Shown one piece after another: positions 19,646 to 56,576 of a stretch of 64,000 nucleotides of DNA (within the stretch, counting starts at the first letter, position 1; the number at the start of each line of letters is the position of its first letter). The notes below the pieces were generated by a model. That model ran no database searches. It saw only the letters and a program-made list of their open reading frames with translations, and was not told the DNA's origin. Position numbers and translations under genes: made by a program. This DNA comes from an uncultured bacterium (GTDB lineage: Bacteria; Babelota; Babeliae; Babelales; Babelaceae), in NCBI GenBank assembly GCA_963848965.1, contig CAWKFG010000004.1:808876-872875 (forward strand), read 5' to 3'.

Positions 19646-20131
19646 TTAAGCTTCATTAATAAGCCATATTTCGTAGTTTAAATAGAGAGCAAAAATTACC
19701 CATAAAGCATAGGGTACTAAAAGTAGTGCTGCTAGACGCGAACAGCGCCATATAAATGCGATAAGAAATACTATACTTAAAAAAACAAACTGAGCATCTA
19801 AAAAAGCTAGAGAGATGTTTTTCCTATAAAAAAAGAAGTAGCTCCACAATACATTGAGCATTCCATTTACTCCAAATAAACTCATAATGGTCCACATATA
19901 AGGATCTCGTGTACATATATTCCATACAATGAGAAGTGAAAATACTGTTAAAGTACCAATAAGAGTCCATATAACAGAAAAAACCCAATCGGGTGGAGTA
20001 AGCGCAGGAAGCAAAATGTCTTCGTGATACCATTGTATACCTTGCATAGTAAACCATCTTCCCAATCCTAGAATGAGTATCACCAATCCTGGGATTATAA
20101 GATAATTAATTTTAAGGTACAGGGTCTTCAT
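19646..20131 (-). CDS. tspO: TspO/MBR tryptophan-rich sensory protein
   Basis: WY..P..TPPDWVFSVIWT, LNVLWSYFFF, LLVPYALW..FA.YLN. Confidence 0.92.
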   Translation of the reverse strand: MKTLYLKINYLIIPGLVILILGLGRWFTMQGIQWYHEDILLPALTPPDWVFSVIWTLIGTLTVFSLLIVWNICTRDPYMWTIMSLFGVNGMLNVLWSYFFFYRKNISLAFLDAQFVFLSIVFLIAFIWRCSRLAALLLVPYALWVIFALYLNYEIWLINEA

Positions 20132-20475
20132 TGCAACTTTCGCTTTTGATCAGGAGATAAACTTGCAAGCTCTTTACTTAAAAAATAACTAAGAAATGTT
20201 CGAATTAATACAAGTAATGCGAGCAACCCTACATCATAATAGGTCGGACGTGTAATCGATTTGATAATATCAGCACCAACCATAAACTCTAATCCAAGAA
20301 TAATGTCATGGCCAAGCCTTAATCTGATACCATTTACGTCTATGGAAGACCTTCGTAGGACCGATGCTATAAAAGTATATAATGATCTGAATGCACCAAA
20401 AGCAATTACCGCTACTCCAATAGTAGAAATAAGCGAACTAACTAGTAATGAAACATCAATTAAAGAAATCATCAT
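20128..20475 (-). CDS. DUF1622 family membrane protein
   Basis: RLRLGHDIILGLEFMVGADIIKSI...LIRTFLSYFLSKE; stop overlaps the tspO start. Confidence 0.85.
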   Translation of the reverse strand: MMISLIDVSLLVSSLISTIGVAVIAFGAFRSLYTFIASVLRRSSIDVNGIRLRLGHDIILGLEFMVGADIIKSITRPTYYDVGLLALLVLIRTFLSYFLSKELASLSPDQKRKLQ

Positions 20476-20581
20476 TACTCCTTTGTTTACTAGCATTTTA
20501 CTAATAGAACAGTATAAAAGCAAGAGAATCCCAAGCTTGAGATTCTCTTACCTTATTTACATTTTAAAAATGCTGTACAAT

Positions 20582-21956: not shown

Positions 21957-23885
21957 TTATTTATCTTGGAGCAATTGCACAATTTCTTGATGCCCTGCTT
22001 CTTGAGCAAGCATTAAAGCAGTCTTACCTTGTTTATTAGTTAGAGACGTATTAGCTTTCACTTCTAATAGTTTCTGTACAAGACCTGTATGCCCTTTTTG
22101 AGCAGCATCCATAAGTACTGTATGTCCTTGACTATCTTGGTAATCAGTATCTTCTTGCTGTAGTGATATCTCTTGATTCTGCCGTTGTACAAGTTTATCA
22201 AGTAAATATTTTTTAAAACAGAATGGCTTATGTATTTTCCATTCTCTCATTTGACATTCCTTTGAGCAATAACGAACAGCTCTACAGCAATTGCACAGTT
22301 GTATGTGCTTACTTTGACAGACATGACATTCTTTTTTATCTATATTAAGAGGATAAGAAAGTATAGTATAACCATAAGTATCTTGAGCTCCTGCTTGCAG
22401 AAGCAGATCCATTAATGCTACAGCTCCTTTTTGAGCAACTATAAGAAATGCATCTTTTTTACTGCTTTTTGTTTTTGCTCCTGCACTTAATAATATTTTT
22501 GCTATATCAGCATGCCCTCGATATAAAGCCCTTATTAAAGGGGTATTTCCATTATTGCTTTCTTCATTGACATCTGCACTATGAGCTATAAGCATTTCTA
22601 CTATATTTTTGTTACCTTCTCTTGCAGCAACCATTAATGGAGTAATTCCATCTTGATCTTTTATATTTCCTCTAAATCCAGCTTTTATGAGGGCAGTAAG
22701 CATTCCTGTATAGTTCTGCTTTACTAATTCATGTACAAGCTGAGCTGGCAAAATTCCTTTTTGAAAGAGAGTTATAACTGCTTGTGTAAAGATGCAAGCT
22801 TGCTGCGGAGTAATAGTTATTTGAGCTCCTCGTTCTAAAAGCAACGCAATGAGATCACTCTCTAGTTTTGAAACAGCTGCAATGAGAGCTGTATGACCAT
22901 CTTCAAATTGAGCATTAACATCAGCACCTGCATCAAGAAGTAGTAGTATTATCTCTTTAGATCCCTGTAATACAGCATCTCTTACAAGAGTTGTTTTATT
23001 CTCGGGATCATTTACTTCTATACCCGCATCTATAAGCATACGTACTATTTCTTTATGGCCTTTAACTACGGCAAAATAGAGTGCAGTACATTTAGCAGTA
23101 GTTTTAGTATTAACATCGGCTCCTTTTTTAAGTAATACCTGTACCACATTACTATGCCCATAATGTGATGCGAGTATTAAAGCAGTTCTGCCATCTTGCG
23201 TAGCAGCATTAATATCTGCTCCTGCATATAAAAGAGCACTTGTTGCTTCAGCATGACCATACTCTGCTGCAAATAATAAAGGAGTATAGTTATTAAAATC
23301 CTCAACATAATACTGATTTGAGTGAGGTAAAAGATATTTACAGGTTGCGTTAACATGAGCTCCATGAGCTATAAGCATTTCTATTACCTCTTTATCGCCA
23401 TTATATGCAGCCCAATGTAATGCTGTTTTACCAGTGTTTTCCTGATCATTAACTCGTGCTCCTGCATCTAATAAAAGAGCTATAATATCTTTGGAAGACA
23501 TGAACTTCCGGTATACTTCACCTGCAGATCCTTTACCTGCTGCCAAAGTTAACGCAGTACAACCATTACTATTTTTACTATGAATATCAACTTTAGCATC
23601 AATAAGTAGTTTCACTATCTCTTTGTAGCCATTTTGTGCTGCTATCATTAAAGCAGTCCATCCATGCTCATCTGTAGCATTAATAGGTGTACTACTTAAA
23701 CGTATAAGTTGTCGAACTCCGTTTACATCCCCTCTTGCAACAGCGCTTAAAAACCTATTTAACGATCGAGAAATATCCTCACGATTTGGCACTTGAGGAC
23801 TTCTTTTTTCTTTCTCCATACAAGAGAGAACACCTGAAAAGCAAAAAACGAAAGCTAATAAATAATATACTAGAACATTTTTCAT
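21957..23885 (-). CDS. Secreted ankyrin-repeat protein with MYND zinc finger
   Basis: Ankyrin repeats; CHVC..CNCC..YCSKECQ..W..HK..C. Confidence 0.9.
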   Translation of the reverse strand: MKNVLVYYLLAFVFCFSGVLSCMEKEKRSPQVPNREDISRSLNRFLSAVARGDVNGVRQLIRLSSTPINATDEHGWTALMIAAQNGYKEIVKLLIDAKVDIHSKNSNGCTALTLAAGKGSAGEVYRKFMSSKDIIALLLDAGARVNDQENTGKTALHWAAYNGDKEVIEMLIAHGAHVNATCKYLLPHSNQYYVEDFNNYTPLLFAAEYGHAEATSALLYAGADINAATQDGRTALILASHYGHSNVVQVLLKKGADVNTKTTAKCTALYFAVVKGHKEIVRMLIDAGIEVNDPENKTTLVRDAVLQGSKEIILLLLDAGADVNAQFEDGHTALIAAVSKLESDLIALLLERGAQITITPQQACIFTQAVITLFQKGILPAQLVHELVKQNYTGMLTALIKAGFRGNIKDQDGITPLMVAAREGNKNIVEMLIAHSADVNEESNNGNTPLIRALYRGHADIAKILLSAGAKTKSSKKDAFLIVAQKGAVALMDLLLQAGAQDTYGYTILSYPLNIDKKECHVCQSKHIQLCNCCRAVRYCSKECQMREWKIHKPFCFKKYLLDKLVQRQNQEISLQQEDTDYQDSQGHTVLMDAAQKGHTGLVQKLLEVKANTSLTNKQGKTALMLAQEAGHQEIVQLLQDK

Positions 23886-23970: not shown

Positions 23971-25653
23971 TTATTTCTTAATACGTGCTTGAGCTTTTAT
24001 AAGAAGTTTTACTATTTCATCGTGAGCATTTTCTTGAGCAAGACTAAGAGCAGTTTTTCCACTTTTATCCATTATAAGAATATTCGCTTTCTTTTTAAGA
24101 AGTACTGTGACAAGCTCTGTATAGCCATTCTTTGCAGCCAGCATAAGAACTGTTTGACCTTGTTGATTAATAGGCTCGTTGAGATTGCTATCATGAGCCA
24201 TTGCTTGATCAATAAGGTACTTTTTCATGCATGCTCCTTTATGTTTAGACCAATCAACTTTTTGGCAGTTTTGAGAGCAATAGCATATGCTCATGCATCG
24301 CTGACATTTTTTTGTAGGAGTCTTATTACATATTTTACACGCTTTATTATTAACTTGTGTCTCTTCTTTATCAAACGAGATCTCTAATTCTGCAGGAAGT
24401 CCCATAAAAAGCGATAAATAATCACCAAGAGGCCCAAGCTTTTCATTCTTTATATTTACACGAATAGATGCCGCTACTGAGGTATCTGAACTGCGTTCAG
24501 TATCAATTGTGATCTCTTCACTATTTTTAAGAAGAATCTCGTATAAGTGTTTACCCCTCTTTTCTTCTCCTCTTAATAATGCAGCGGTCTCGCCAGGAGT
24601 AATTAAGGACATTTCTTCAGGAGTTGAATCGTGCTTGGGCACAAGAAGCTTAACAAGCTCTATATGTCTGCTTCGAAATGCATGCATAAAAGCATTATGG
24701 CCCTCATTACATCGCAATGTAAGGCTAGAATTGTATCTTAACAAGACTTTCACTATCTTTGTGTTTCCCCTTTGAGCAGCTATCATTAAAGCAGTATCAC
24801 CATTCTTATTTTGCATATCTACATACTGATTCTGCTCTTCTAAATCCTTAATTGTTTCTATAAGTATTTTAACTACATCAAGATGCCCATTTTGAGCAGC
24901 TAACATTAAAGGGCTCCAGCCTACATTATCTACAGCATCAATCTTAGCACCCTTACTTAAAAGAATTTTAACTAATGTTCTATGCCCTGAATCTGCTGCT
25001 CGAATTAAAGGCGTAGCTTGCGTTTCTTCGTCTCGAGCATTAACGTCAGCTCCTTGCTCTATAAGAAGGTTAGCTAATGCTAAATGTCCTTCAAAAGATG
25101 CAGCGATTAATGCTCTATTTTTAGCACTTTGCTTATCATCGCTATGTTCTACTAATAATCCTACTATAAGTGAGTGACCTTCAGAAGCCGCTAGTTCTAT
25201 AGCTGTAGCACGATCCTTATTTTTAAGAGAACTATTTGCTCCTCTTTCAAGCAAATAGTTAACAGCTGTTACATTACCATCAAGTGCAGCAACCATTAAA
25301 GGAGTTAATCCTAAAAGCGGCTCTTTAGCATTAATATCCAAGCCTGCATCAAGGATCCTTTTTATAGTAGCAAAATTCCCTTTAACCATCGCCTCTAAAA
25401 GAGAGCCAAGGTCTGGATTAACCTTCTTGGCTATAATAGCAAACTGTTTTGGTGTCCATTTCACCTGTTTTTCTGATTCTGTCACTATATTATCAAGAGT
25501 AATATTAAGTTGTGCAAGTTGTTCAGACGAAAGCTCGATACTTCCTTCATCAGTTTGTATAGCAATCTTGCAATTCTTTAAATCTGGGATCTTTTCCATT
25601 CCATACATTAAAATACTACTAGAGAGCATTGCTAATAACACATAATAATACAT
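23971..25653 (-). CDS. Secreted ankyrin-repeat protein with MYND zinc finger
   Basis: Ankyrin repeats; CKIC..CQRC..YCSQNCQ..DW..HK..C. Confidence 0.9.
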   Translation of the reverse strand: MYYYVLLAMLSSSILMYGMEKIPDLKNCKIAIQTDEGSIELSSEQLAQLNITLDNIVTESEKQVKWTPKQFAIIAKKVNPDLGSLLEAMVKGNFATIKRILDAGLDINAKEPLLGLTPLMVAALDGNVTAVNYLLERGANSSLKNKDRATAIELAASEGHSLIVGLLVEHSDDKQSAKNRALIAASFEGHLALANLLIEQGADVNARDEETQATPLIRAADSGHRTLVKILLSKGAKIDAVDNVGWSPLMLAAQNGHLDVVKILIETIKDLEEQNQYVDMQNKNGDTALMIAAQRGNTKIVKVLLRYNSSLTLRCNEGHNAFMHAFRSRHIELVKLLVPKHDSTPEEMSLITPGETAALLRGEEKRGKHLYEILLKNSEEITIDTERSSDTSVAASIRVNIKNEKLGPLGDYLSLFMGLPAELEISFDKEETQVNNKACKICNKTPTKKCQRCMSICYCSQNCQKVDWSKHKGACMKKYLIDQAMAHDSNLNEPINQQGQTVLMLAAKNGYTELVTVLLKKKANILIMDKSGKTALSLAQENAHDEIVKLLIKAQARIKK

Positions 25654-26058
25654 ACTATTCCTTTCTTATAAGCTATTTTTATATTCTTTACTATACATAA
25701 TTCTGTCAATTTGTCAAAAATAACTTCTGCGTATCAGTTATAAGCACTAGTATGATGGCATACACTATGAACAGGCTCTATAGGCACTTTTTATTAAAAA
25801 AGGCAGAAAATACTGAGCAAAGCTCAGCAGTCTATAGGCTAGGGGATGAATGCCCATTTGCACAGGTTGCTAGTAATAGTAGATAAGCTTAACAAACAGA
25901 TCTAGCATAGTAGACTATGAAAAAAGCATTTAACTATCGCTTTTATCCTACAAGCCAACAACAGCTTTCTCTATTAAGGTACAGCCCAGAACAAAGACAC
26001 CCAAATCTTGACTTTTGCTTACTAAAAATTTCATAATAAACAAAAAAGGGAGTGTGCT

Positions 26059-27105
26059 GTGGCAGAAGGAACGAGCAAACAACCAGAGGTTAATGCAACC
26101 TCTACATTATTCCAATTTATATGGATTGGTGTTACCTCTGTTGTCCTACTCTTTCTTATCTATCAATCAATTACTGATTTTAAATCGCTTGATGAAATAC
26201 CAGAATTATTCCCTATAACACCAGCAAAAGCTGCTGAGTTTGGAGGAACTCCTGCTCATGTAAAGGTTGGATTACAAATAAGTAGTTTTTCTGTGTTTGA
26301 TATGATTAATAACAACTTTGCCTTAGCAGGGACTGTCTGGTTTGAATTTGATCCAAGTATGACATCATTAGAAACTATCGGGAAATTCTCTTTTGAAAAG
26401 GGAGAAATTAAACTGCTTTCTCCTCCTAGCACTCGTATCATTGAAGGGCGATTATTTGCACGCTATAACGTCCGAGTTGAACTCAAAACTAACCTTAATC
26501 AAAGGCTCTTTCCTTTCACAGGACATACACTCTATATAGTACTTGATAATAACTACGTTTCACCTGCAGAGATTACTTTTGAATCTGCTCTTAAAGACTT
26601 TGTTCTCTCACGAGGTATTGTTGTATCCGGCTGGAAGGAATACGATCGTCATGTTTATACGGGCTATTCTGTTGCCGAATTAGAAAAAAACAATAAAGAA
26701 AAAACTATCTATCATCCTCGTGCTATGTTCGCTATTGATTTTGGATTTGTAGGTATCAGACAGATACTTACTATTTTACTTCCTCTTATTCTTATTTTCT
26801 TTATCTCTGTTTTTTCCTTTGCTCTTGATCCTAAAGGATATTATACTTCAATTCTTACTATATCTTCAGGCAGTATCACAGGTTTGCTTGCATACCGCTT
26901 TGTTATTGAAAATCTCTCTCCTCGAGTAGGATATTTTATGCTCTCTGATTGGCTTTTTTTCCTTTTTTTAACAATGACATTCGTTATCTTTTTTGCAAAT
27001 ACTAAAACATTAAATCTTCATGTACGAAGCAAAGAGTTTATAACAATCGTATTACATGCAATCGTTATAGCAACGGCAGTTTATCTTTTTAACTTTTGGG
27101 TTTAA
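26059..27105 (+). CDS. Prokaryotic pentameric ligand-gated ion channel (GLIC/ELIC-like)
   Basis: VKVGLQI..FDM..NF beta1-beta2; Pro-loop LFPF; M1 ILLPLILIFFIS; M2-M3 LSPRVGYFMLSD; C-terminal M4; N-terminal signal anchor. Confidence 0.78.
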   Translation: MAEGTSKQPEVNATSTLFQFIWIGVTSVVLLFLIYQSITDFKSLDEIPELFPITPAKAAEFGGTPAHVKVGLQISSFSVFDMINNNFALAGTVWFEFDPSMTSLETIGKFSFEKGEIKLLSPPSTRIIEGRLFARYNVRVELKTNLNQRLFPFTGHTLYIVLDNNYVSPAEITFESALKDFVLSRGIVVSGWKEYDRHVYTGYSVAELEKNNKEKTIYHPRAMFAIDFGFVGIRQILTILLPLILIFFISVFSFALDPKGYYTSILTISSGSITGLLAYRFVIENLSPRVGYFMLSDWLFFLFLTMTFVIFFANTKTLNLHVRSKEFITIVLHAIVIATAVYLFNFWV

Positions 27106-27107
27106 AA

Positions 27108-29447
27108 ATGAAAAAACTAGTAAATTTTCTGTTTATAGTTCTTCTTTTTTGTTTCTCTACTAGAGCATTCGAGACACTCAAACAAGCAGAAGCCTATGCT
27201 CAGCTTAATCCTGAAGTTTCTATTGCTAAAGAGCAAAACATTTTAAGGCCTGATTATGAAGATTTTTATGTTCAACGAGGACCTTCACTTATTTCTGATA
27301 TCTTAACACCATTTAAAGATCAGTTATGGTCTCCTACCATCTTTAAAGATACACTACAAACAGTTGTACAAGAGCGAGAGCAAAAAGGATATTACGGTAA
27401 ATTTATTCTTATTAAAACTCCAAAACCAGGAACTCAATTTATTGTAATTGGACCGCTCTTTGGAACATTTCACTCACTTGTAAGAAACCTCAAAGAACTT
27501 GAAGTTCAAGGGTTTATAAATAATAATTTAGAAGTGATTAAGCCAAACTGTTTTATAATTTTCAATGGTAATGTTATAAACGGCGCGCCACACGTTTTAG
27601 AGACACTCACACTTGTTCTTTCGCTTATGGAAAAAAATCCTCATGCCGTTAAGTACATAAGAGGACTCTATGAAAACGAACTATACTGGCAAAATACTAC
27701 GTTAAAAAGCCAGCTTAAATTACAAGCACGGCGCCTTTCAAACGAAAATATACCATTTGCACGCCTTCTTACCCGATTTTTTAAGACACTCCCTCTTGGT
27801 ATATACCTCAATAGTACCAATCCACAAGAAGGGCTTTTACGTATCTCTTATTTTTCACTTGAAGATAATGTCTTTCTTGAAAATTCATGTATGAAAGAAC
27901 TTCTAACCTATCGCCCTTCTATGACAGTATGTAGATTAAAAACTGCTGCTAAGTCTGAAGAACGTGCTCCTGTAAGAGCAATTATTAAAGGTGAAAATCG
28001 GCTCATAAGCTATGAACAAAATCCAGGGCTCACTCTTTTGGAGCCTGAGCGTGGAGCAACAGCATGGTCTGTACTTTCAAGTCCTAATAAAATATACAGA
28101 GAACATTTTTCATTCTTCTATGACGCTTTTTCCATCATTACTATAGGGCCTACACTTGCAGACACTACCATTACTCTCTATCACCAGGATGTAAGAGATC
28201 TCATTAGTTTTAGAAGAGCAATGACCTATAATCTACTTACTGGACAAGCTTTACTAAGACCACTATCAACACAACCTGCATTTGAGATACTTTTTGCTAA
28301 AAAAGAAGTTAAAGTCCCTCGTATTGAAGAGAAAGTTCCAGAAACTCTTCATATTACTGACACTATTAGATTGGGCTCTACCATGGATCTTTCAAAGAGT
28401 AACCAGCTTATTGGCAAAAGTATGAAAGCAGGTATCTCTGCACTTGTTAACAGAGTTAATCAATCTGGAGGCATTAATGGTAAGCTTTATCAAGTTACCA
28501 TTGTAGATGACCAATATAATCCTACACTTTCACATGCTAACATAGAAAAATTTCTGCATAATAATATTAAGTTCATCTTATGCCCAGTAGGAACACCAAC
28601 ATTATCAGCATCACTCGATCTAATCAAAGAGAAAAAGATCTTTGTACTCTTTCCTAATAGCGGTTCTCTCATCTTCCGTAAACCAGATCTTACTAATATT
28701 GTTCACTTTAGACCTTCTTACGAAACTGAAGCAGTTGCGATTACGTACCATATGATAAAGAATTTAGCATCTAAAAGATTTGCTTTCTTTTACCAAAATG
28801 ATAGTTATGGCAGATCTGCTTTAGACGGCGCTCTTAAAGTACTTAAAAAAGAAGGACTTAAAGAATGGATTGACGCTCCATATCTTGCTAATACAGTACA
28901 AGTAAATGAAGCAGTAAACGCCATTAGAAAAGGACTTCCAGATAGCATAGGATTCTTCTCAAACGTTACTCCTACTATAGAGCTTATACGTCAGTTAGGA
29001 AGTGAATTCTTAGCAGGCAGGAAACTCTTTGCTATTTCTCCTGTAGGAGAACGGTCATTCAAACAGTTCGTAAGATCTTCAGGACTAGAAGTCTCCTTTG
29101 CTCAAGTAGTACCAAACCCTGCTACAAGTGATCTTCAAATAGTACAAGAATATCGCCAAGAAATAGCAAAACAAGCATTAGCACCTGATACTTACGCACT
29201 TGAAGGATATATTGCTGCTTCACTCACTGCAAATTATTTCAGAAGAATTAAAGGACCAATTACCTTTGAAGCTCTCTTAAAACTTATAGAAGGCACTAAG
29301 AATTACAAATTCAAAGGGCTTACACTAAACTTTGATCCTCAAACACGAGCGTTAGCACATTATTTGTGGATTGAACAACCAAATGGTGAATGGGTAGAGC
29401 AAAATTTAAATGCTTTAGAGAGTATAAATGAAAGCACTACACAATAA
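27108..29447 (+). CDS. Fusion: degenerate metallophosphoesterase-like domain + LivJ-type periplasmic binding protein
   Basis: N-terminal IGPLFGTFHSL/FNGNVING/IRGLYE echo GDxHG/GDxVDRG/RGNHE; C-terminal GGING..DDQYNP..VGTP..FYQNDSYG..LEGY. Confidence 0.8.
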   Translation: MKKLVNFLFIVLLFCFSTRAFETLKQAEAYAQLNPEVSIAKEQNILRPDYEDFYVQRGPSLISDILTPFKDQLWSPTIFKDTLQTVVQEREQKGYYGKFILIKTPKPGTQFIVIGPLFGTFHSLVRNLKELEVQGFINNNLEVIKPNCFIIFNGNVINGAPHVLETLTLVLSLMEKNPHAVKYIRGLYENELYWQNTTLKSQLKLQARRLSNENIPFARLLTRFFKTLPLGIYLNSTNPQEGLLRISYFSLEDNVFLENSCMKELLTYRPSMTVCRLKTAAKSEERAPVRAIIKGENRLISYEQNPGLTLLEPERGATAWSVLSSPNKIYREHFSFFYDAFSIITIGPTLADTTITLYHQDVRDLISFRRAMTYNLLTGQALLRPLSTQPAFEILFAKKEVKVPRIEEKVPETLHITDTIRLGSTMDLSKSNQLIGKSMKAGISALVNRVNQSGGINGKLYQVTIVDDQYNPTLSHANIEKFLHNNIKFILCPVGTPTLSASLDLIKEKKIFVLFPNSGSLIFRKPDLTNIVHFRPSYETEAVAITYHMIKNLASKRFAFFYQNDSYGRSALDGALKVLKKEGLKEWIDAPYLANTVQVNEAVNAIRKGLPDSIGFFSNVTPTIELIRQLGSEFLAGRKLFAISPVGERSFKQFVRSSGLEVSFAQVVPNPATSDLQIVQEYRQEIAKQALAPDTYALEGYIAASLTANYFRRIKGPITFEALLKLIEGTKNYKFKGLTLNFDPQTRALAHYLWIEQPNGEWVEQNLNALESINESTTQ

Positions 29448-29514
29448 AGTAGAATACTTCTACTTTATTGATTAAAGCACATTAAGATGTTTAATTAAGC
29501 AGAGGAAATGAGAT

Positions 29515-31857
29515 ATGCTAAAATTTTTATTTTTAATTTGTTCTTTAGCAAGTACATTTCTTCATGGACTAGATTCAATTAACACGCTCCTTGCATTTAC
29601 CCAAATTCATGAAGAATATCCAGAAGCAGATAATGATGATATTGCTAATCTTCACTATACCAACTTTTATAAAAAGAATGCTGCTACTTTTTGGACACGC
29701 TTTCTAGCACGGCTTGGCCTAGCTACCTTTAACGTTCAACAATACTATCAAAATCTTAAAGACATAACCGAAAAAAGACTCAAAGACGCTTTGCGAAAGA
29801 GATATACTATTATTCTTAAAGTTCCTGCTAGTACTCAGTTTATAGTAATCAGTAATAGTCAAGGTGAAATACACTCTCTTGCTCGCATTCTTAATGCTCT
29901 CTACCAAAATAAGATCATTGATGAAAACTTTAAAATTCTAAGCAATGATCTTTACTTTATTTTTAATGGTAATATGACAACTAGCTCTCCTTATGCGTTA
30001 GAAAGCCTTAATGTTATTACAAATATCTTGAGAGTAAATCCGAATAGAGCTTTCTTTATTAAAGGGGTTTATTCTGATAAAGAACGATGGAAAACAAGAG
30101 CTCTTGGTTATCAAGTAGATATTCAACTTTCTTACTTTAAAGATGCCTCTTCTGTCATTAGAGAATTCTTTAACACCCTTCCATTAGGAGTATACATACT
30201 TTCAGAAGATCCAAATGAGCCCCCTATTCGTATTTCACACTATGATCTTAATGCACAAGAATTTAATAACTTAGAATGCTCTCTCAAATCACCACACACA
30301 GCTCAGACGCAAGAAGGCATATGCTTAGTAGGAGAACCAACTGCTCCACCACAAGGACCGTTAACAGCTCTTATTACCGGAAAAGATGATAATGTTGACC
30401 TTAGTAATTCACATGGTCTCCTTTTCGTTCAACGAGAAAATCCGCCTACGTGGAAAGTTTTTTCAAGCCCTTCGCGTTTTTATAGACAAAAATTTGGCTT
30501 CATTTACGATGCTTTTGCGCTTATTACAGTAGGAAAATCTGTTCAATCCAGTCTTATTAGTTTATTTAATGAAAATGTACTCCATCCTAGATTCAAACTT
30601 GAAAAGACATATGATATTGTTACAGGAAAATCCATCCTTGATCCTATTAAGTCCTCTACATGGGATTCTATTTTTCAAACTTTGCGTTCTATGGCTCTCA
30701 AACATTCTACTTCTTTGCCAGAACGAAAAGCTTCAATTCAGATACAAGATAAAGCTTTTTCACTCTTAAAAGGAACCGTAGAACTTGGTTCAACACTTGA
30801 CCTTTCAGCTCGTATTAAAAATATAGGAATTGCAACGAAAAATGGGGTTTCACTTGCACTCAATAAAGTAAATAGAGAAGGTGGTATTAATGGTAAGCGA
30901 TATTTCGTTGATTTTTTAAATGATCACTACAACCCTTCTACCTCAAAAGCTAATATAGAGCAGCTTATAAAAAACAATGTTAAACTTATTCTTGCTCCTG
31001 CAGGCACTCCAACTATACTTAGATGGCTCGATTTAATTGAAAATAAAGAAGTCTTTGTGCTATTCCCAAATAGTGGCTCTCCACAACTAAGAAAACCGGA
31101 TCTTACTCATATTGTTCACTTTAGGCAATCATACTTAAATGAAGGACAGGCACTTGCATATTATATGATAAAAAATGTAGATTCTAAAAAGTTTACCTTC
31201 TTTTACCAAGATGATGATTATGGTAAATCTGCTTTAGAAGGAGCTCGCCAAGTTCTTAAAAGAGAAGGGATAAAAGAGTGGACAGAAGTAGCCCATCCGC
31301 CAACTGCAGTTCAGGTAACTGAAGCAGCAAACATTATTAGAAAGAGTAATCCCGAAGCTATAGGATTTTTTTCAAATATTGCGCCTACTACGAATTGTAT
31401 TAGAGACTTAGGTGGAGAGTTTTTAACAGGTAAAAACCTTTTCGCTGTATCACCTTTAGGCGATAGATCATTTAAACAGTTTATCCAATCAATGGGACTA
31501 GAAGTCACCTTCTCTCAAGTAATACCAGATCCACTAACTAGTATGATTGAAATAGTTAAAGAGTATAGACAAGAAGCAACAAAACAAGCACTTACACCAG
31601 ATACCTATTCTCTGGAAGCGTATATTGCTACTATAATAACTGCAGATTATTTAAGAAAGATTAAAGGGCCGATTACTCCTGATGCTCTTCTAAAACTTAT
31701 AGAAAACACAAAGAATTATAACTTTAAAGGACTTACTCTTAATTTTAATCCAAAAACACATCAGCTTAATCAATATCTCTGGATAGAGCAACCGGATGGT
31801 AAATGGCTAGAACATGATATGGAAAAATTAACTACCTACTTAACAGAAAGCAAATAG
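29515..31857 (+). CDS. Fusion: degenerate metallophosphoesterase-like domain + LivJ-type periplasmic binding protein
   Basis: Paralog of 27108-29447 and 37663-40029. Confidence 0.8.
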   Translation: MLKFLFLICSLASTFLHGLDSINTLLAFTQIHEEYPEADNDDIANLHYTNFYKKNAATFWTRFLARLGLATFNVQQYYQNLKDITEKRLKDALRKRYTIILKVPASTQFIVISNSQGEIHSLARILNALYQNKIIDENFKILSNDLYFIFNGNMTTSSPYALESLNVITNILRVNPNRAFFIKGVYSDKERWKTRALGYQVDIQLSYFKDASSVIREFFNTLPLGVYILSEDPNEPPIRISHYDLNAQEFNNLECSLKSPHTAQTQEGICLVGEPTAPPQGPLTALITGKDDNVDLSNSHGLLFVQRENPPTWKVFSSPSRFYRQKFGFIYDAFALITVGKSVQSSLISLFNENVLHPRFKLEKTYDIVTGKSILDPIKSSTWDSIFQTLRSMALKHSTSLPERKASIQIQDKAFSLLKGTVELGSTLDLSARIKNIGIATKNGVSLALNKVNREGGINGKRYFVDFLNDHYNPSTSKANIEQLIKNNVKLILAPAGTPTILRWLDLIENKEVFVLFPNSGSPQLRKPDLTHIVHFRQSYLNEGQALAYYMIKNVDSKKFTFFYQDDDYGKSALEGARQVLKREGIKEWTEVAHPPTAVQVTEAANIIRKSNPEAIGFFSNIAPTTNCIRDLGGEFLTGKNLFAVSPLGDRSFKQFIQSMGLEVTFSQVIPDPLTSMIEIVKEYRQEATKQALTPDTYSLEAYIATIITADYLRKIKGPITPDALLKLIENTKNYNFKGLTLNFNPKTHQLNQYLWIEQPDGKWLEHDMEKLTTYLTESK

Positions 31858-31862
31858 TGCTT

Positions 31863-31888
31863 AAAGGTTCCCTTTCAAGGGAACCTTT
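31863..31888. terminator. Bidirectional intrinsic terminator
   Basis: AAAGGTTCCCTT-TC-AAGGGAACCTTT between convergent genes. Confidence 0.8.
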
Positions 31889-33276: not shown

Positions 33277-34596
33277 ATGAAAACAACTTTAAAAAGAACC
33301 ATTCTTTTCTTTTTAATAAGCTTTTTAGCTTGTATAGCCACTATACGGTTGGAAAATAACCCAACCTTACTAGAAAAATTACATATCACCATGGTGAGTA
33401 ATGACGATTGGATAAAAGAGCTCAATGAAGCAGGTATCTTAACCCAACCTTGCAAAAAGCTCTCTATAGAGAAGAAACAATACGATATACCTTTATTTAA
33501 GCATTATCCTCAACTGCTAGGAAAATTACCCTATATCTCTCTAGGTAATCTTCCTACACCAATTATGAAACTTGAAAACTTGTCTTCAAAACCAGGTTAT
33601 CCTATCATTTACGTAAAAAGAGATGACCTTACAGGTACCTCACAAGAATATGGAGGCAATAAGGTAAGAAAACTTGAACCTCTCTTTGGTGAAGCCTTAA
33701 TGCATGGTGCTACCGAGATTATTACCTTAGGATGGGCAGGATCTAATAGTGCAGTTGCTACATCTGCATATGCAAAAAAGCTGGGCTTAAAATGTACTTG
33801 TATGCTAAAACCTCAAGATAATTCATCTCTTTTACAAAAGAACTTATTACTTCATACCCATTATGGAACAGAGCTCCACTATTATCCTGACAATAATTGG
33901 CGCAAACTTGGTACCATTACCTTATGGCATAATAGAAAACAGGTAACTGGAAGGTATCCGTATATTATTCCCACTGGTGGTTCTAATGCATTAGGTACTA
34001 TAGGCTTTGTAAATGCTGCTCTAGAGCTTAAAAAGCAGATTTTAGACGGGCAAATGCCTGAGCCAGACCGCATTTATGTAGCATGTGCAGGAATGGCTAC
34101 TAGTGTAGGACTAATCCTTGGATGTAAGCTTGCTCAACTAAAAACACAGGTAATTCCAGTAATAGTAGGGCCGGAAGAAACTCCTGGTCAATACAAAACA
34201 GGAATTAAAAAGCTCTTTGATGAAGCACTTGCTCTTCTTCGTAGCTATGATCCATCAATACCTTTTCTACAAGTTCCAGAAGATATAGCAATTAATTATG
34301 ATTTTAGTGGCCCAAAATATGGTATATTTACTTTACAAGGTATGAACGCTCAAAAACTAGCACAAGAGCTAGAAAACCTTAACTTAGATGGTATCTATAC
34401 AGCAAAAGCATTTGCAGCTCTTTTAGATGATATAAAGAATAAGAAAATTACAACAGATGAGATAGTTCTTTTTTGGAATACTTACTGCGGTCTTGATTTT
34501 TCAAAGCTTACTGATTCTCTCAATTACTCTCAATTACCTTCAAGCTTTCATCACTACTTCCAGACAGAATTGCAACCTTTAGAAAGATCACTATAA
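33277..34596 (+). CDS. D-cysteine desulfhydrase/ACC deaminase family PLP enzyme with N-terminal signal-like extension
   Basis: PTPI, VKRDD, YGGNKVRKL, GSN, IPTGGS, LDGIYTAKA. Confidence 0.88.
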   Translation: MKTTLKRTILFFLISFLACIATIRLENNPTLLEKLHITMVSNDDWIKELNEAGILTQPCKKLSIEKKQYDIPLFKHYPQLLGKLPYISLGNLPTPIMKLENLSSKPGYPIIYVKRDDLTGTSQEYGGNKVRKLEPLFGEALMHGATEIITLGWAGSNSAVATSAYAKKLGLKCTCMLKPQDNSSLLQKNLLLHTHYGTELHYYPDNNWRKLGTITLWHNRKQVTGRYPYIIPTGGSNALGTIGFVNAALELKKQILDGQMPEPDRIYVACAGMATSVGLILGCKLAQLKTQVIPVIVGPEETPGQYKTGIKKLFDEALALLRSYDPSIPFLQVPEDIAINYDFSGPKYGIFTLQGMNAQKLAQELENLNLDGIYTAKAFAALLDDIKNKKITTDEIVLFWNTYCGLDFSKLTDSLNYSQLPSSFHHYFQTELQPLERSL

Positions 34597-37662: not shown

Positions 37663-40029
37663 ATGCTCAAGCTTTTATTTTTCATTTTTTTTCTAATTAC
37701 GGCGCCTCTTCGTGGATTAGATTCAATTGATAATCTTCTTACGTTTACTCAAACTCATGATGAATATCCAGAAGCGGATAATGATAATATTGCTAATCTT
37801 CGCTATACCAACTTTTACAAAAAGAGTATTCCTACTTTTTGGAAACGCTTTCTAGCAAGATTAGGTCTCGCTACCTTTGACGCTCAACAATACTATCTCA
37901 ATCTAAAAGAAATAACCGAAAAAAGACTTAAAGAAGGTTTACGAAAGAGGCATACTCGTGTTCTTAAAGTTCCTGCTGGTACACAGTTTTTAATTATTAG
38001 CAATACTCAAGGTGACTTACATTCACTTACCCGTATATTTAATGCACTATACCAAAATCATATTATAGACCAGAACTTTAAAATCTTAAGCACTAATCTT
38101 TACCTTATTTTTAACGGTAATATGACTACAAGCTCTCCTTATGCTTTAGAAAGTCTTAACGTTATTATAAACATTCTAAAAGCAAATCCGGGACATGCTT
38201 TCTTCATTAAAGGTACTTACTCAGATAAGGAGCAATGGAAAACAAGAGCACTCGGCTATCAAGTAGATATTCGGCTCTCTTACTTTAAAGATGCTCCCTC
38301 TGTTACTAGAGAATTCTTTAACACTCTCCCTTTAGGAATATACATACTTTCAGAAGATCCTAATGAGCCTCCTATTCGTATATCTCACTATGATCTAAGT
38401 GCACAAGAATTCAATAATCTGGAATGTTCTCTTAAATCACCGCATACATCTCAAATTCAAGAAGGCATATGTTTAGTGGGAGAGCCAACTGCACCACCTC
38501 AAGGACCGCTAACCGCTCTTATTGCCGGAAAAGATGATAACGTTGATCTTAGTAATTCTCGTGGCCTTCTCTTTGTTCAACGAGAAAATCCGCCTACTTG
38601 GAAAGTCTTTTCTAGCCCCTCTCGATATTATAGACAAAAATTTGGCTTTATTTACGATGCTTTTGGGCTTCTTACTATAGGCAAATCTGTTAAATCTAGC
38701 TTTATCAGTCTATTTAATGAAAATGTGCTTCACCCTGGTTTTAAGCTTGCAAAAACGTACAGCATCGTTACAGGGAAACCTTTAACAGTTCCTCAAATTA
38801 AAGGCTCTAAAAATTGGCAAAATCTTTTTCAAAAGCTCAGCTCGTTAGCAAAAGACACCAATCTAAAGCAGTTCCAACATAAGCAAGTTTTAACCAAGAC
38901 AACCGATAGCCATCCTCAAAAAACTACAAAAGGAATCGTAGAGTTAGGCTCTAGCGTAGACCTTTCAAGAAGCTTAAAAAACTTAGGTCGTGATATCCGC
39001 ATAGGAATTTCACTTGCTTTAAATGGAATAAACCAATCAGGAGGGATAAATGGTAAATCCTATCAAGTTACTATACTTGATGATCAATATACTCCATTGC
39101 TTACTAGAAAAAACGTAGATTATTTCTTAAAGAAAGGCATAAGCTTAATCCTTATTCCTACAGGAAGTCCTACTCTGGAAGCGTGTTTAGATTTAATTAA
39201 AAACAGAAAGATCCTTGTTCTATTTCCAACAACTGGAGCTGATCTCTTTAGAAAACCTGAGTTAGAATATATTGTACATTTTAGGAAATCTAATAGAATT
39301 CAAGCGAAAATAGTAGTTGAACACTTAGTAAAACAATCTACGTCACTAAAAAAGTTTGCTTTTTTCTACCAAAACGATCTTCATGGCAACGAATCACTAA
39401 AAGGGGCTTTAGAATCTCTTAAAAAGGCTAGAATAAAAAATTGGGTTTTAGTCCCTTACACTTCAAATACATTATTAAAAATACCGGAAGCAGCAGAAAC
39501 TATAAGAAAAGCTAATCCCGACGCTATCGGTCTCTTTTCGACGCTTCCTCCAGCCATAGAACTTTTACGGCAATTAGGCGGTGAATTTTTAGAACCTAAA
39601 ATGATTTTTACTAATTCAACATTAGGAGAAAAGTCTTTCCGTGAATTTTTAGATTCGTTAGGATTAAAAGCTACCATAGCGCAAGTAACTCCTAACCCGC
39701 AAACAAGTTCCCTAGAAATAGTTAAAGAATATAGAAATGAGATAGTAAAAAAAGGTTTTAAAACAGACCCTTATTCTCTCGAAGGTTATATAGCAACTCA
39801 GTTAACTGCAGATTTTCTTAAGAAAATATCTGGGCCTATTACAAAGCCTTCACTCTTAAAACTAATTAAAAGTTTAAAAAACTATAACTTTAAAGGATTA
39901 AATTTAAACTTTAACCCAAAAACGCATGAAATTGCAGACTACCTTTGGATAGAAGAGCCAACAGGACAATGGATAGAATATAAAATTAAAGATGATGAAG
40001 GCAATGTTGTTTCTCAAAAGTCTATATGA
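37663..40029 (+). CDS. Fusion: degenerate metallophosphoesterase-like domain + LivJ-type periplasmic binding protein
   Basis: N-terminal half very similar to 29515-31857; binding domain more diverged. Confidence 0.8.
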   Translation: MLKLLFFIFFLITAPLRGLDSIDNLLTFTQTHDEYPEADNDNIANLRYTNFYKKSIPTFWKRFLARLGLATFDAQQYYLNLKEITEKRLKEGLRKRHTRVLKVPAGTQFLIISNTQGDLHSLTRIFNALYQNHIIDQNFKILSTNLYLIFNGNMTTSSPYALESLNVIINILKANPGHAFFIKGTYSDKEQWKTRALGYQVDIRLSYFKDAPSVTREFFNTLPLGIYILSEDPNEPPIRISHYDLSAQEFNNLECSLKSPHTSQIQEGICLVGEPTAPPQGPLTALIAGKDDNVDLSNSRGLLFVQRENPPTWKVFSSPSRYYRQKFGFIYDAFGLLTIGKSVKSSFISLFNENVLHPGFKLAKTYSIVTGKPLTVPQIKGSKNWQNLFQKLSSLAKDTNLKQFQHKQVLTKTTDSHPQKTTKGIVELGSSVDLSRSLKNLGRDIRIGISLALNGINQSGGINGKSYQVTILDDQYTPLLTRKNVDYFLKKGISLILIPTGSPTLEACLDLIKNRKILVLFPTTGADLFRKPELEYIVHFRKSNRIQAKIVVEHLVKQSTSLKKFAFFYQNDLHGNESLKGALESLKKARIKNWVLVPYTSNTLLKIPEAAETIRKANPDAIGLFSTLPPAIELLRQLGGEFLEPKMIFTNSTLGEKSFREFLDSLGLKATIAQVTPNPQTSSLEIVKEYRNEIVKKGFKTDPYSLEGYIATQLTADFLKKISGPITKPSLLKLIKSLKNYNFKGLNLNFNPKTHEIADYLWIEEPTGQWIEYKIKDDEGNVVSQKSI

Positions 40030-46609: not shown

Positions 46610-46647
46610 TGTAAACTCCAGTAAGCGCAAAGAAACTGGGCCCTTTT
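46610..46647 (-). mobile_element. Remnant of IscB-element 3' end abutting a start codon
   Basis: TGTAAACTCCAGTAAGCGCAAAGAAACTGGGCCCTTTT versus TGTAAAATTCCAGTAAGCGCGGAAACCGGGCCTTTT at 51361. Confidence 0.75.
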
Positions 46648-56416: not shown

Positions 56417-56576
56417 TTACAAAAGACATGCTAGACTTGTTAATATATAGAATTTTAGAGCCATATTATGTTAGTACTTTACCTATCTCCTTTATAGAAA
56501 CAGCTTATATTATTCATATTTAGCATTCCGTTAAAAATATTGCTCTATTCTAAAAACAGTGTTAAAGGACAATCTA

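What the first reader, a model, noticed from the sequence alone, without database searches (positions are those of the whole stretch)
26059..31857. pLGIC operon with pseudo-phosphatase/periplasmic-binding-protein fusions
Seen: a GLIC/ELIC-like channel gene is followed 2 bp later by two tandem exported proteins. Each has an N-terminal domain with PPP/calcineurin-like motif spacing but without the metal ligands, and a C-terminal LivJ-type binding domain. No ABC permease or ATPase lies nearby. Known: bacterial pLGICs associate with periplasmic ligand-binding domains. Inference: a split ionotropic receptor with interchangeable sensor subunits, possibly sensing host amino acids. The dead-phosphatase fusion is not an architecture I recognise.
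Basis: partly seen in the sequence, partly recalled or inferred. Interest (0 to 1): 0.75.

Follow-up and report, generated by a model that had tools for sequence, protein, structure and literature searches.

The report
Channel operon with dead-phosphatase sensor proteins
A bacterial relative of our neurotransmitter-gated ion channels is encoded together with exported sensor proteins that join a catalytically dead phosphatase fold to a nutrient-binding domain, and this pairing is conserved in related bacteria and sometimes fused into one protein.

Summary
Gene 26059-27105 encodes a divergent pentameric ligand-gated ion channel (pLGIC). Its AF2 model has pLDDT 92.8 and matches sTeLIC and GLIC by Foldseek at about 1e-16.

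Two base pairs downstream lie two exported proteins of about 780 aa. Each has an N-terminal PPP-phosphatase fold (matches PP5, PP1 and calcineurin at about 1e-11) that keeps 0 of 7 signature catalytic residues. Each also has a C-terminal LivJ-type Peripla_BP_6 domain.

The pairing is not local chance:
- In 54 of 61 related loci, a gene carrying the dead-phosphatase domain directly follows the channel gene. No locus is labelled as any other cultured lineage: 31 are labelled Dependentiae/TM6/Babeliales and the other 30 carry generic or different MAG labels.
- Four proteins fuse channel, phosphatase-like domain and binding domain into one chain.
- Two proteins fuse the channel directly to the binding domain.
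- No ABC transporter gene was found in the window or in the locus flanks.
- The phosphatase-like domain is degenerate family-wide: 0 of 134 copies keep all seven residues. It always sits once, ahead of 0 to 7 binding domains.

Best reading (confidence 0.6): a multi-subunit ionotropic chemoreceptor in which the binding domain senses a ligand and the dead phosphatase docks it to the channel.

Ligand, ion selectivity and gating are untested. PBP-pLGIC links were predicted in 2005. This architecture is a new variant of that known kind.

The parts
26008..26037 (+). Promoter-like site (TTGACT, 18-nt spacer, CATAAT) upstream of the channel gene
   Evidence: Consensus scan, 10 of 12 matches. The region held 25 such sites against 21.2 expected from shuffles, so this is weak evidence taken alone.
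26059..27105 (+). pLGIC-like channel subunit, 348 aa, GTG start
   Evidence: ORF. Family profile against PDB: GLIC 4.2e-11. AF2 pLDDT 92.8. Foldseek: sTeLIC 5.6e-17, then GLIC and GluCl. Pfam gives no hit at E<=0.01. NCBIfam LGIC_1 scores 28.1 bits against a cut-off of 500.
26104..26175 (+). Extra N-terminal hydrophobic helix (aa 16-39) ahead of the extracellular domain. It is either a signal anchor or a long signal peptide.
   Evidence: Helix H16-39 with block pLDDT 93-97. Kyte-Doolittle 19-residue maximum is 2.25. A hydrophobic stretch sits at this position in all 40 aligned relatives.
26221..26754 (+). Periplasmic beta-sandwich domain of the channel (aa ~55-232), including the Pro-loop with F151-P152
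   Evidence: Strands E66-E230 in the model. F151 is nearly invariant and P152 invariant in 40 sequences. The region aligns to GLIC's loop.
26755..27093 (+). Four transmembrane helices M1-M4 (aa 233-345)
   Evidence: Helices H233-255, H258-286, H295-315 and H322-345. phmmer aligns aa 236-329 to sTeLIC. P242 is invariant.
27108..29447 (+). Sensor protein 1 (779 aa from the ATG): signal peptide, dead PPP-like domain (NDOM), Peripla_BP_6 domain
27195..28343 (+). NDOM of sensor 1: PPP-phosphatase fold that keeps 0 of 7 signature residues
   Evidence: Own HMM, 7e-142. AF2 pLDDT 86.9. Foldseek: PP5 1.3e-11, then PP1, calcineurin and PP2A. Motif census.
28356..29429 (+). Type-I periplasmic binding domain of sensor 1 (Peripla_BP_6)
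   Evidence: Pfam 3.7e-38, 132.5 bits. PDB 4kv7 7.3e-21 and 3lop 1.3e-19.
29515..31857 (+). Sensor protein 2 (780 aa), same architecture. NDOM at about 29596-30726, PBP at about 30769-31839.
   Evidence: Pfam Peripla_BP_6 9.9e-40. Own HMMs: NDOM 3e-102, PBP 4e-142. Against sensor 1: NDOM 28% identical, PBP 60%.
31863..31888 (+). Terminator-like hairpin (11-bp stem, T-rich tail) directly after sensor 2, between convergent genes
37663..40029 (+). Sensor protein 3 (788 aa), an unlinked paralogue not in the finding. NDOM at about 37744-38880, PBP at about 38929-40005.
   Evidence: Own HMMs: NDOM 1e-96, PBP 2e-134. Pfam Peripla_BP_6 1.9e-30. Against sensor 2: NDOM 82% identical, PBP 49%.

Best explanation
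The locus is a three-gene operon (channel, sensor 1, sensor 2) plus one unlinked sensor paralogue. The organism is probably a member of the Dependentiae (TM6/Babeliales). Together the genes encode a multi-subunit, periplasm-facing ionotropic chemoreceptor.

The 348-aa protein forms the pentameric pore (pentamer inferred from the family). Each sensor protein is exported and has two modules:
- a C-terminal LivJ-type clamshell domain (PBP) that binds a small molecule;
- an N-terminal domain (NDOM) with a PPP Ser/Thr-phosphatase fold that has lost its metal and catalytic residues.

Proposed mechanism: NDOM acts as the constant docking and transducing module that holds the binding domain on the channel's periplasmic domain. 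Ligand-induced closure of the binding domain is then passed through NDOM to the channel and changes gating. The result is an ion flux or membrane-potential signal that reports periplasmic solutes.

Shown: the folds, the loss of catalytic residues, the conserved gene pairing, the natural fusions, and the absence of nearby ABC genes.

Inferred: physical docking through NDOM, gating by the sensor, the direction of the effect, the ion selectivity, the ligand, and the physiological output.
For: Folds:
- The channel has a pLGIC fold.
- NDOM has a PPP fold.
- The C-terminal domain is Peripla_BP_6.

Coupling of channel and sensors:
- In 54 of 61 related loci, an NDOM-bearing gene starts within 130 bp after the channel gene.
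- Four proteins of 1102-1113 aa (P0016, P0169, P0170, P0171) carry channel, NDOM and PBP in the operon's order in one chain. In the two I read at that point (P0169, P0170) no signal-peptide-like hydrophobic stretch precedes NDOM.
- Two proteins in L046 fuse the channel to a C-terminal PBP. This is topologically possible because M4 ends in the periplasm (established pLGIC topology).

NDOM as the constant module:
- It is present once and N-terminal, ahead of 0 to 7 PBP domains, in 135 of 136 representatives. The exception has the order PBP-NDOM.
- In the split three-gene form (PBP, channel, NDOM; 6 loci) the free NDOM has a strongly hydrophobic N-terminal anchor, with KD19 1.8-2.9. The free PBP has only a signal-peptide-like segment.

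NDOM is not an enzyme:
- 0 of 134 unique copies keep all seven signature residues, and the window's three copies keep 0 of 7.

No ABC importer partner was seen:
- None among 48 window ORFs.
- None in the flanks of the 61 loci. A motif screen gave 4 candidates. Pfam on three of them returned a deoxynucleoside kinase, DUF4143 and UvrA; the fourth (L011) is the same-length counterpart of the L010 DUF4143 protein in a near-identical locus and was not scanned.

Operon signals: a promoter-like site lies before the channel gene and a terminator-like hairpin after sensor 2.
Against: - No experiment or structure shows binding or gating.
- The pairing with NDOM is not universal. Four channel loci (L028, L032, L053, L059) form one clade in a quick tree and have no NDOM or PBP neighbour in the DNA held. 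Channels of this family can therefore exist without the partner.
- The L046 fusions lack NDOM, so NDOM is not strictly needed to couple a PBP to the channel.
- Some relatives keep 5 or 6 of the 7 catalytic residues (21 of 134). A residual ligand-binding or enzymatic role for NDOM in those members is not excluded.
- The two metal-ligand histidines in the second half of PPP enzymes could not be mapped with any tool.
- A liv-type ABC system elsewhere in the genome cannot be excluded from a 64-kb window.
- Pfam's pLGIC models do not hit the channel. Homology rests on profile and fold searches.
Confidence: 0.6

Rival explanations
1. Binding-protein-dependent uptake through the pentameric pore. The PBP domains capture host-derived solutes and hand them to the pLGIC-like pore, which works as an ATP-independent facilitated-diffusion pathway rather than as a signalling channel.
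For: No ABC partner lies nearby in the window or in any of the 61 loci. PBP modules are massively expanded, up to 7 per protein and 1 to 4 sensor genes per channel. That looks more like nutrient scavenging than signalling. From general knowledge, not tested here: Dependentiae are host-dependent with reduced biosynthesis.
Against: Characterised pLGICs conduct small ions only (established knowledge of the family). No solute-translocating pLGIC is known. A pore wide enough for amino acids would dissipate ion gradients. Nothing in the sequence distinguishes transport from gating.
Confidence: 0.15
2. The sensor proteins are ordinary substrate-binding proteins of a liv-type ABC importer encoded elsewhere. 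Their position next to the channel gene reflects co-regulation only.
For: Source annotations call relatives 'branched-chain amino acid transport system substrate-binding protein'. The Peripla_BP_6 family is best known from ABC importers. The rest of the genome could not be examined.
Against: Four channel-NDOM-PBP fusions and two channel-PBP fusions tie the binding domain covalently to the channel. Synteny holds in 54 of 61 loci. No importer ABC genes were found in 873,014 bases of flanks. The extra NDOM head, and chains of up to 7 PBPs, are not features of ABC-importer binding proteins.
Confidence: 0.08
3. NDOM is itself a sensor or weak enzyme. The degenerate PPP pocket would bind a phosphorylated or anionic ligand (nucleotide, phospho-metabolite, phosphate). 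The system would then integrate two ligands, one at NDOM and one at the PBP.
For: 21 of 134 copies keep 5 or 6 of the 7 signature residues. Motif-adjacent residues are strongly conserved: H122, S123 and R126 are invariant or nearly so. Pseudo-enzymes often retain ligand binding (general knowledge).
Against: The window's three copies keep 0 of 7. 72 of 134 copies keep 2 or fewer. No copy keeps the full set. A pocket analysis was not possible with the tools available.
Confidence: 0.12

Closest known systems
Prokaryotic pLGICs (GLIC, ELIC, sTeLIC, DeCLIC)
   Same: Same fold: a beta-sandwich periplasmic domain plus M1-M4. The Pro-loop motif and the M1 proline are conserved. Like DeCLIC, this channel has additional periplasmic mass that probably modulates gating (DeCLIC paper PMC12664993, passages read).
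   Different: The sequence is very divergent: no Pfam hit, and about 15-17% identity to solved channels. There is an extra N-terminal hydrophobic helix. The additional periplasmic module is a separate gene product, or a C-terminal fusion, rather than an N-terminal domain. That module has a PPP-plus-PBP architecture, unlike DeCLIC's NTD lobes.
PBP-associated bacterial pLGICs predicted by Tasneem, Iyer, Jakobsson and Aravind 2005 (PMC549065, passages read)
   Same: That paper reported N-terminal fusions of PBP-I domains to pLGICs in Magnetospirillum and Bradyrhizobium. It also reported operons with stand-alone PBP-II or Cache proteins, and proposed functional cooperation. The concept of a pLGIC plus a periplasmic binding domain is therefore already in print.
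   Different: Here the PBP-I domain is in a separate protein, or fused C-terminally. It is always headed by a dead PPP-phosphatase domain and can be multiplied up to 7 times. The system is conserved across the related MAG lineages sampled, many labelled Dependentiae. None of this is mentioned in the passages read.
Eukaryotic ionotropic glutamate receptors (PBP-type domains fused to a channel)
   Same: The logic is the same: clamshell binding domains related to bacterial PBPs control an ion pore (as summarised in PMC549065 and PMC12664993).
   Different: The pore family is unrelated: a tetrameric P-loop channel against a pentameric pLGIC. The iGluRs have no phosphatase-like module. This is an analogy, not homology.
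PPP-family Ser/Thr phosphatases (PP1, PP2A, PP5, calcineurin)
   Same: Same fold (Foldseek about 1e-11, TM up to 0.61). The motif spacing is recognisable and a profile alignment runs across motifs I-III.
   Different: All seven signature residues are replaced in the window's copies, and no family member keeps all seven. The domain is exported to the periplasm and fused to PBPs.
LivJ/LivK-type substrate-binding proteins of ABC importers
   Same: Peripla_BP_6 family, type-I clamshell.
   Different: No cognate permease or ATPase genes lie nearby. There is an extra N-terminal domain. In some relatives the domain is covalently fused to a channel.

Membership tests
Pentameric ligand-gated ion channels (Pro-loop receptors) | Extracellular beta-sandwich followed by four transmembrane helices | tested here: met
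   AF2 model with pLDDT 92.8, strands 66-230 and helices 233-345. Foldseek gives probability 1.00 to sTeLIC, GLIC and GluCl.
Pentameric ligand-gated ion channels (Pro-loop receptors) | Conserved Pro-loop (aromatic-Pro-x-Asp-type motif) and conserved M1 proline | tested here: met
   F151 is nearly invariant; P152 and P242 are invariant in 40 sequences. Both regions align to GLIC's in the profile alignment. The window has Thr where the family consensus has Asp. That these positions define the family is recalled knowledge.
Pentameric ligand-gated ion channels (Pro-loop receptors) | Recognition by curated family models | tested here: not met
   Pfam Neur_chan_LBD and Neur_chan_memb give no hit at E<=0.01. 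NCBIfam LGIC_1 scores 28.1 bits against a cut-off of 500. Homology rests on the profile search (4.2e-11) and on the fold.
Pentameric ligand-gated ion channels (Pro-loop receptors) | Pentameric assembly and ligand-gated ion conduction | not testable with these tools
   Needs structure determination and electrophysiology.
PPP-family phosphoprotein phosphatases | Metallophosphoesterase / PPP fold | tested here: met
   Foldseek: PP5 1.3e-11, then PP1, calcineurin and PP2A. Profile against PDB: BSU1 5e-6, PP2A 7e-6. Pfam Metallophos is found in 8 of 10 relatives scanned, 7 of them above the cut-off.
PPP-family phosphoprotein phosphatases | Signature motifs GDxHG, GDxxDR and GNH(E/D), which carry the metal ligands and catalytic His (motifs recalled from knowledge of the family) | tested here: not met
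   The window's copies keep 0 of 7 residues. 0 of 134 unique family domains keep all seven. NDOM is therefore not filed as a phosphatase. It is a pseudo-phosphatase.
PPP-family phosphoprotein phosphatases | The two further metal-ligand histidines in the C-terminal half | tested here: inconclusive
   Sequence alignments to PPPs stop after motif III. My own mapping of candidate columns found no conserved His, but that mapping is recalled and was not checked by a tool.
Peripla_BP_6 / LivJ-type type-I periplasmic binding proteins | Match to the family model above its curated cut-off | tested here: met
   132.5, 137.7 and 107.1 bits against a cut-off of 31.7.
ABC-importer substrate-binding proteins (liv system) | Cognate permease and ATPase genes | tested here: not met
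   None among 48 window ORFs. None in the flanks of the 61 loci by motif screen plus Pfam. Genome-wide absence is not testable here.
ABC-importer substrate-binding proteins (liv system) | Branched-chain amino-acid binding | not tested
   Only distant similarity to LivJ and LivK (about 2e-8). The closest solved relatives, 3lop and 4kv7, are of unknown ligand to me.

The most novel reading that the evidence does not exclude
The channel is not a signalling device. It is the membrane component of a new class of binding-protein-dependent, ATP-independent importer. Chains of PBP domains, held on the pentameric pore by a dead phosphatase adaptor, would capture host metabolites and release them into a pLGIC-derived pore. 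That would give an energy-parasitic phylum a cheap way to feed.
Probability: 0.12. Interest if true: 0.9.

Novelty: new variant of a known kind. Interest (0 to 1): 0.72.

Why it matters
pLGICs are the receptors for acetylcholine, GABA, glycine and serotonin. In every characterised member the agonist binds the channel's own extracellular domain. A natural pLGIC controlled through a separate ligand-binding protein would be a new gating principle for this family. It would also be a bacterial counterpart of glutamate-receptor logic built on a different pore.

The family offers ready-made single-chain versions for structural work. It also offers a clean example of a phosphatase fold reused as a non-catalytic adaptor.

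For Dependentiae, which are host-dependent and mostly uncultured, it may be a major device for sensing host solutes. Current annotation labels the channel 'hypothetical protein' and the sensors 'ABC transporter substrate-binding protein'. That labelling misleads metabolic reconstructions.

Tried and rejected
- Complex prediction. I submitted two copies of the channel's periplasmic domain (aa 41-235) with NDOM (aa 22-395). The score was 0.00 and the result was no verdict. This is neither for nor against binding.
- Pfam and NCBIfam on the channel gave nothing usable. Profile and fold searches were needed.
- Single-sequence PDB search of the channel gave only weak hits, at 1.7e-4.
- ABC motif screen. 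The first regex was too strict and gave 0 hits. After relaxing it I got 4 candidates. Pfam on three gave no importer ATPase; the fourth (L011), the counterpart of the L010 DUF4143 protein, was not scanned. This is a crude screen and covers the flanks only.
- I tested whether the two roughly 400-aa genes flanking the gap between sensors 2 and 3 mark a segmental duplication. They are unrelated. The 401-aa neighbour has no PDB or Pfam match.
- I checked whether the long relatives of 1100-1260 aa from the first search were channel fusions. Of the 23 such proteins classified, 22 are NDOM plus two PBPs. Only P0016 is a channel fusion.
- The careful ML tree did not finish in 288 s, so only the quick tree was used.
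- ESM Atlas look-alikes added nothing beyond Metallophos-type clusters and 'hypothetical protein' clusters.
- Literature. These searches found no paper: 'Dependentiae' + 'ligand-gated ion channel', 'pseudophosphatase' + 'periplasmic binding protein', and 'ligand-gated ion channel' + 'calcineurin-like' + 'periplasmic'. Searches listed nothing relevant. Jaiteh 2016 (PMC4795631) holds none of the terms periplasmic, phosphatase or operon.


Full report
WHAT IS THERE

The window has about 34% G+C. It is rich in ankyrin-repeat genes.

At 26059-27105 (+) lies a 348-aa ORF with a GTG start. Its TAA ends at 27105. An ATG at 27108 opens a 779-aa ORF that runs to 29447. The ORF listing extends that ORF to a TTG at 27096, but the identical database protein P0001 has 779 aa. 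A 780-aa ORF follows at 29515-31857.

A promoter-like site (26008-26037, 10 of 12 matches) precedes the first gene. An 11-bp-stem terminator-like hairpin (31863-31888) follows the third. The next gene is convergent. The three genes therefore look like one operon.

THE CHANNEL

Curated models barely see the channel. Pfam gives nothing at E<=0.01. NCBIfam LGIC_1 scores 28 bits against a cut-off of 500. phmmer finds sTeLIC at about 2e-4.

The protein has 104 relatives in the large protein collection. None of them carries a precomputed Pfam domain, and the sources that name them call them 'hypothetical protein'.

A profile of 40 relatives (A1) hits 127 distinct PDB sequences at E<=0.01. The best is GLIC at 4.2e-11, and the alignment runs from the Pro-loop to M3.

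The AF2 model is confident, with pLDDT 92.8 and pTM 0.84. Its best Foldseek matches are sTeLIC (5.6e-17), GLIC, GluCl and GABA-A receptors, all with probability 1.00.

F151 is nearly invariant, and P152 and the M1 proline P242 are invariant, in the 40 sequences.

One departure is a hydrophobic helix at aa 16-39, ahead of the beta-sandwich. It is modelled with high confidence and is present in all 40 aligned relatives. It is either a signal anchor, which would give five membrane helices, or a long signal peptide. I could not decide between these.

THE SENSOR PROTEINS

Both downstream proteins start with signal-peptide-like segments.

Their C-terminal halves are Peripla_BP_6 domains, at 132.5 and 137.7 bits against a cut-off of 31.7. 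The closest solved relatives are 3lop and 4kv7, at about 1e-40 with a domain profile. LivJ and LivK appear only at about 2e-8. 'LivJ-type' is right as a fold class, but the ligand is open.

The N-terminal roughly 400 aa, called NDOM here, have no Pfam hit in the window's copies. Pfam Metallophos is detected in 8 of 10 relatives scanned, 7 of them above the cut-off.

The AF2 model of sensor 1's NDOM (pLDDT 86.9) matches PP5 (1.3e-11), PP1, calcineurin and PP2A, with probability 1.00 and target TM 0.55-0.61. An NDOM-only profile (A3) finds PPP phosphatases by sequence: BSU1 5e-6, PP2A 7e-6, then PPZ1, PP5 and PP1. That alignment runs across the three N-terminal signature motifs.

I examined the seven signature positions: Asp and His of motif I; Asp, Asp and Arg of motif II; Asn and His of motif III. 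The motif definitions are recalled knowledge of the family. The window's copies read P,F / N,N,G / L,Y and N,Q / N,T,S / V-or-T,Y. That is 0 of 7 in each copy.

This is a family property. Of 143 complete NDOMs gathered, 134 were unique. None keeps all seven residues. The distribution of retained residues is 0:20, 1:28, 2:24, 3:23, 4:18, 5:14 and 6:7.

The two later metal-ligand histidines of PPP enzymes could not be mapped by a tool. My own column guess found no conserved His.

A THIRD PARALOGUE AND DOMAIN MOSAICS

A third sensor gene lies at 37663-40029.

Domain by domain:

| Pair | NDOM identity | PBP identity |
|---|---|---|
| Sensor 2 vs sensor 3 | 82% | 49% |
| Sensor 1 vs sensor 2 | 28% | 60% |

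The two modules therefore have different histories. That fits a constant docking part and a diversifying ligand part. It is compatible with other scenarios too.

THE PAIRING IS CONSERVED

A scan of one genome per species returned 61 loci.
- 31 are labelled Dependentiae, TM6, Babeliales or Babeliaceae.
- 13 are labelled 'uncultured bacterium' or 'bacterium'.
- 14 are labelled 'uncultured Pseudomonadota'.
- 2 are labelled Leeuwenhoekiella and 1 Sulfurovum.
- All 61 are MAGs. I did not verify the labels.

I searched the loci with my own HMMs for channel, NDOM and PBP. In 54 of 61 loci an NDOM-bearing gene starts within 130 bp after the matched channel gene.

The seven exceptions are:
- L046, with two channel-PBP fusions.
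- L051, where the contig ends at the channel and a PBP gene lies upstream.
- L057, with only 1,023 bases left and an opposite-strand ORF.
- L028, L032, L053 and L059, whose downstream genes are unrelated: a 605-aa protein with no family, EF-G, a WD40/PD40 protein plus an OPT transporter, and none on the same strand nearby. These four channels form one clade in a quick ML tree, with SH-aLRT 99. That tree was the quick substitute for a careful search that did not finish.

Gene arrangements vary:
- The channel is followed by 1 to 4 sensor genes.
- Sensors carry one, two or three PBPs.
- Channel-sensor units occur in tandem arrays (L018, L037, L039, L043).
- A split three-gene form, PBP then channel then NDOM, occurs in 6 loci (L016, L040, L042, L050, L056, L060).

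In the split form the free NDOM has a strongly hydrophobic N-terminal anchor, with KD19 1.8-2.9. The free PBP has only a signal-peptide-like segment.

NATURAL FUSIONS

A search for longer relatives of the channel found three proteins of 1102-1105 aa. My HMMs resolve them as channel, NDOM and PBP in one chain. P0016, at 1113 aa, is a fourth.

The order matches the operon. In P0169 and P0170, the two I read at that point, no signal-peptide-like hydrophobic stretch precedes NDOM. Three of the four fusions form a clade (98), and a single origin for all four is not excluded.

Together with the two channel-PBP fusions in L046, these are strong comparative evidence that the products work as one assembly. 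They suggest about one sensor per channel subunit.

SIZE AND SHAPE OF THE NDOM FAMILY

A profile search of 1.84 billion cluster representatives found 3463 proteins at E<=1e-3, 2331 at E<=1e-10 and 566 at E<=1e-30. The weaker hits probably include true phosphatases.

Of the 150 best, 136 were new to the session. Their architectures are:

| Architecture | Count |
|---|---|
| NDOM alone | 76 |
| NDOM + 1 PBP | 30 |
| NDOM + 2 PBPs | 16 |
| NDOM + 3 PBPs | 7 |
| NDOM + 4 PBPs | 3 |
| NDOM + 5 PBPs | 1 |
| NDOM + 6 PBPs | 1 |
| NDOM + 7 PBPs (P0184, 3020 aa) | 1 |
| PBP then NDOM | 1 |

The query profile was built mostly from stand-alone NDOMs, so the ranking favours that form. NDOM is single and N-terminal in 135 of the 136.

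NO ABC PARTNER NEARBY

Pfam on 48 window ORFs shows no ABC_tran or permease family. In 873,014 bases of locus DNA, a Walker-A plus signature-motif screen gave four candidates. Pfam on three of them returned a deoxynucleoside kinase, a DUF4143/AAA_14 protein and UvrA. The fourth (L011) is the same-length counterpart of the L010 DUF4143 protein in a near-identical locus and was not scanned. This is a crude screen and says nothing about the rest of each genome.

MECHANISM

I consider the following most likely, with confidence 0.6. The channel pentamer carries exported sensor subunits on its periplasmic face. NDOM is a phosphatase fold stripped of catalysis, and it acts as the constant adaptor and transducer. 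The PBP is the variable ligand sensor. Ligand-induced clamshell closure alters gating.

The steps that are shown are the folds, the loss of catalytic residues, the conserved adjacency, the fusions, and the lack of nearby ABC genes. The inferred steps are contact through NDOM, gating, ligand, selectivity and output.

Points against this reading:
- One channel clade lacks partners.
- The L046 fusions lack NDOM.
- 21 of 134 NDOMs keep 5 or 6 of the 7 residues, so NDOM may bind something in some members.

The rivals are PBP-fed solute uptake through the pore (0.15), a second-ligand or weak-enzyme role for NDOM (0.12), and ordinary ABC binding proteins with only regulatory linkage (0.08).

WHAT IS KNOWN

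Tasneem et al. 2005 (PMC549065, passages read) already described bacterial pLGICs with N-terminal PBP-I fusions. They also described operons with PBP-II or Cache proteins, and proposed cooperation. The general idea is therefore known, though as far as I read it is untested.

I found no paper on this architecture. Searches listed nothing relevant. Jaiteh 2016 holds none of the terms searched. About 1.7 million PMC articles and most subscription journals are outside these searches.

VERDICT

This is a new variant of a known kind. The new features are a dead-phosphatase adaptor, separate or C-terminal sensors, multiplied PBPs, and conservation across the related MAG lineages sampled, many labelled Dependentiae. 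Interest 0.72.

Noticed in passing
window 37663-40029 (+): A third NDOM-PBP paralogue lies 5.8 kb downstream of the operon, not next to a channel gene. Its NDOM is 82% identical to sensor 2's but its PBP only 49%.
   Followed up: yes
window 21957-23885 (-) and 23971-25653 (-); also 938-2485, 4046-5704, 10219-11616, 45110-46630, 52243-53247, 56559-58244: Eight ankyrin-repeat proteins lie in 64 kb. The two directly upstream of the operon also carry a zf-MYND finger, a eukaryote-type domain. They look like host-directed effectors of an intracellular or host-associated bacterium.
   Followed up: no
window 15042-19382 (-): A 1446-aa ORF has no Pfam family at E<=1e-4.
   Followed up: no
window 19646-20131 (-) and 20128-20523 (-): A TspO/MBR family protein and a DUF1622 protein overlap by 4 bp. 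TspO is uncommon in reduced genomes.
   Followed up: no
window 33277-34596 (+): A PLP-dependent enzyme of the D-cysteine desulfhydrase / ACC deaminase group scores below every equivalog cut-off. It has an N-terminal extension of about 80 aa.
   Followed up: no
L001 6643-7476, L024 6522-7928, L026 6677-7900, L041 6524-7900: In four loci a first channel gene is followed by a gene of about 280-470 aa with no clear family, and then by a second channel gene with its sensors. The middle gene shows only weak DcaP outer-membrane-protein similarity, at 3.9e-6 and 0.014, both below the cut-off. It may be another kind of partner.
   Followed up: partly
L028, L032, L053, L059: One clade of channels has no NDOM or PBP neighbour in the DNA held. 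In L059 the channel matches the family HMM in two pieces within one ORF.
   Followed up: partly
P0184 (3020 aa), P0285 (2821 aa), P0240 (2274 aa): Giant relatives carry one NDOM followed by 7, 6 and 5 PBP domains in a single chain.
   Followed up: partly
L001, L002, L006, L026, L047: Channel or sensor genes are split into two or three adjacent ORFs in these MAG contigs. These are either assembly frameshifts or pseudogenes. I could not tell which.
   Followed up: no
L003-L006, L009, L026 (second gene after the channel): In the window's own channel clade the second downstream gene is an NDOM-only protein of about 315-367 aa, with very degenerate motifs. The best match outside the window to the NDOM of sensors 2 and 3 is one of these, from L026, at 35%. 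This hints that sensor 2 arose when a PBP was added to such a gene.
   Followed up: partly
window 58659-59015 (-) and 63573-63866 (-): A DUF5615/PIN-like protein and a DUF433 protein. These families usually form toxin-antitoxin-like pairs (recalled), but here they lie 4.5 kb apart.
   Followed up: no
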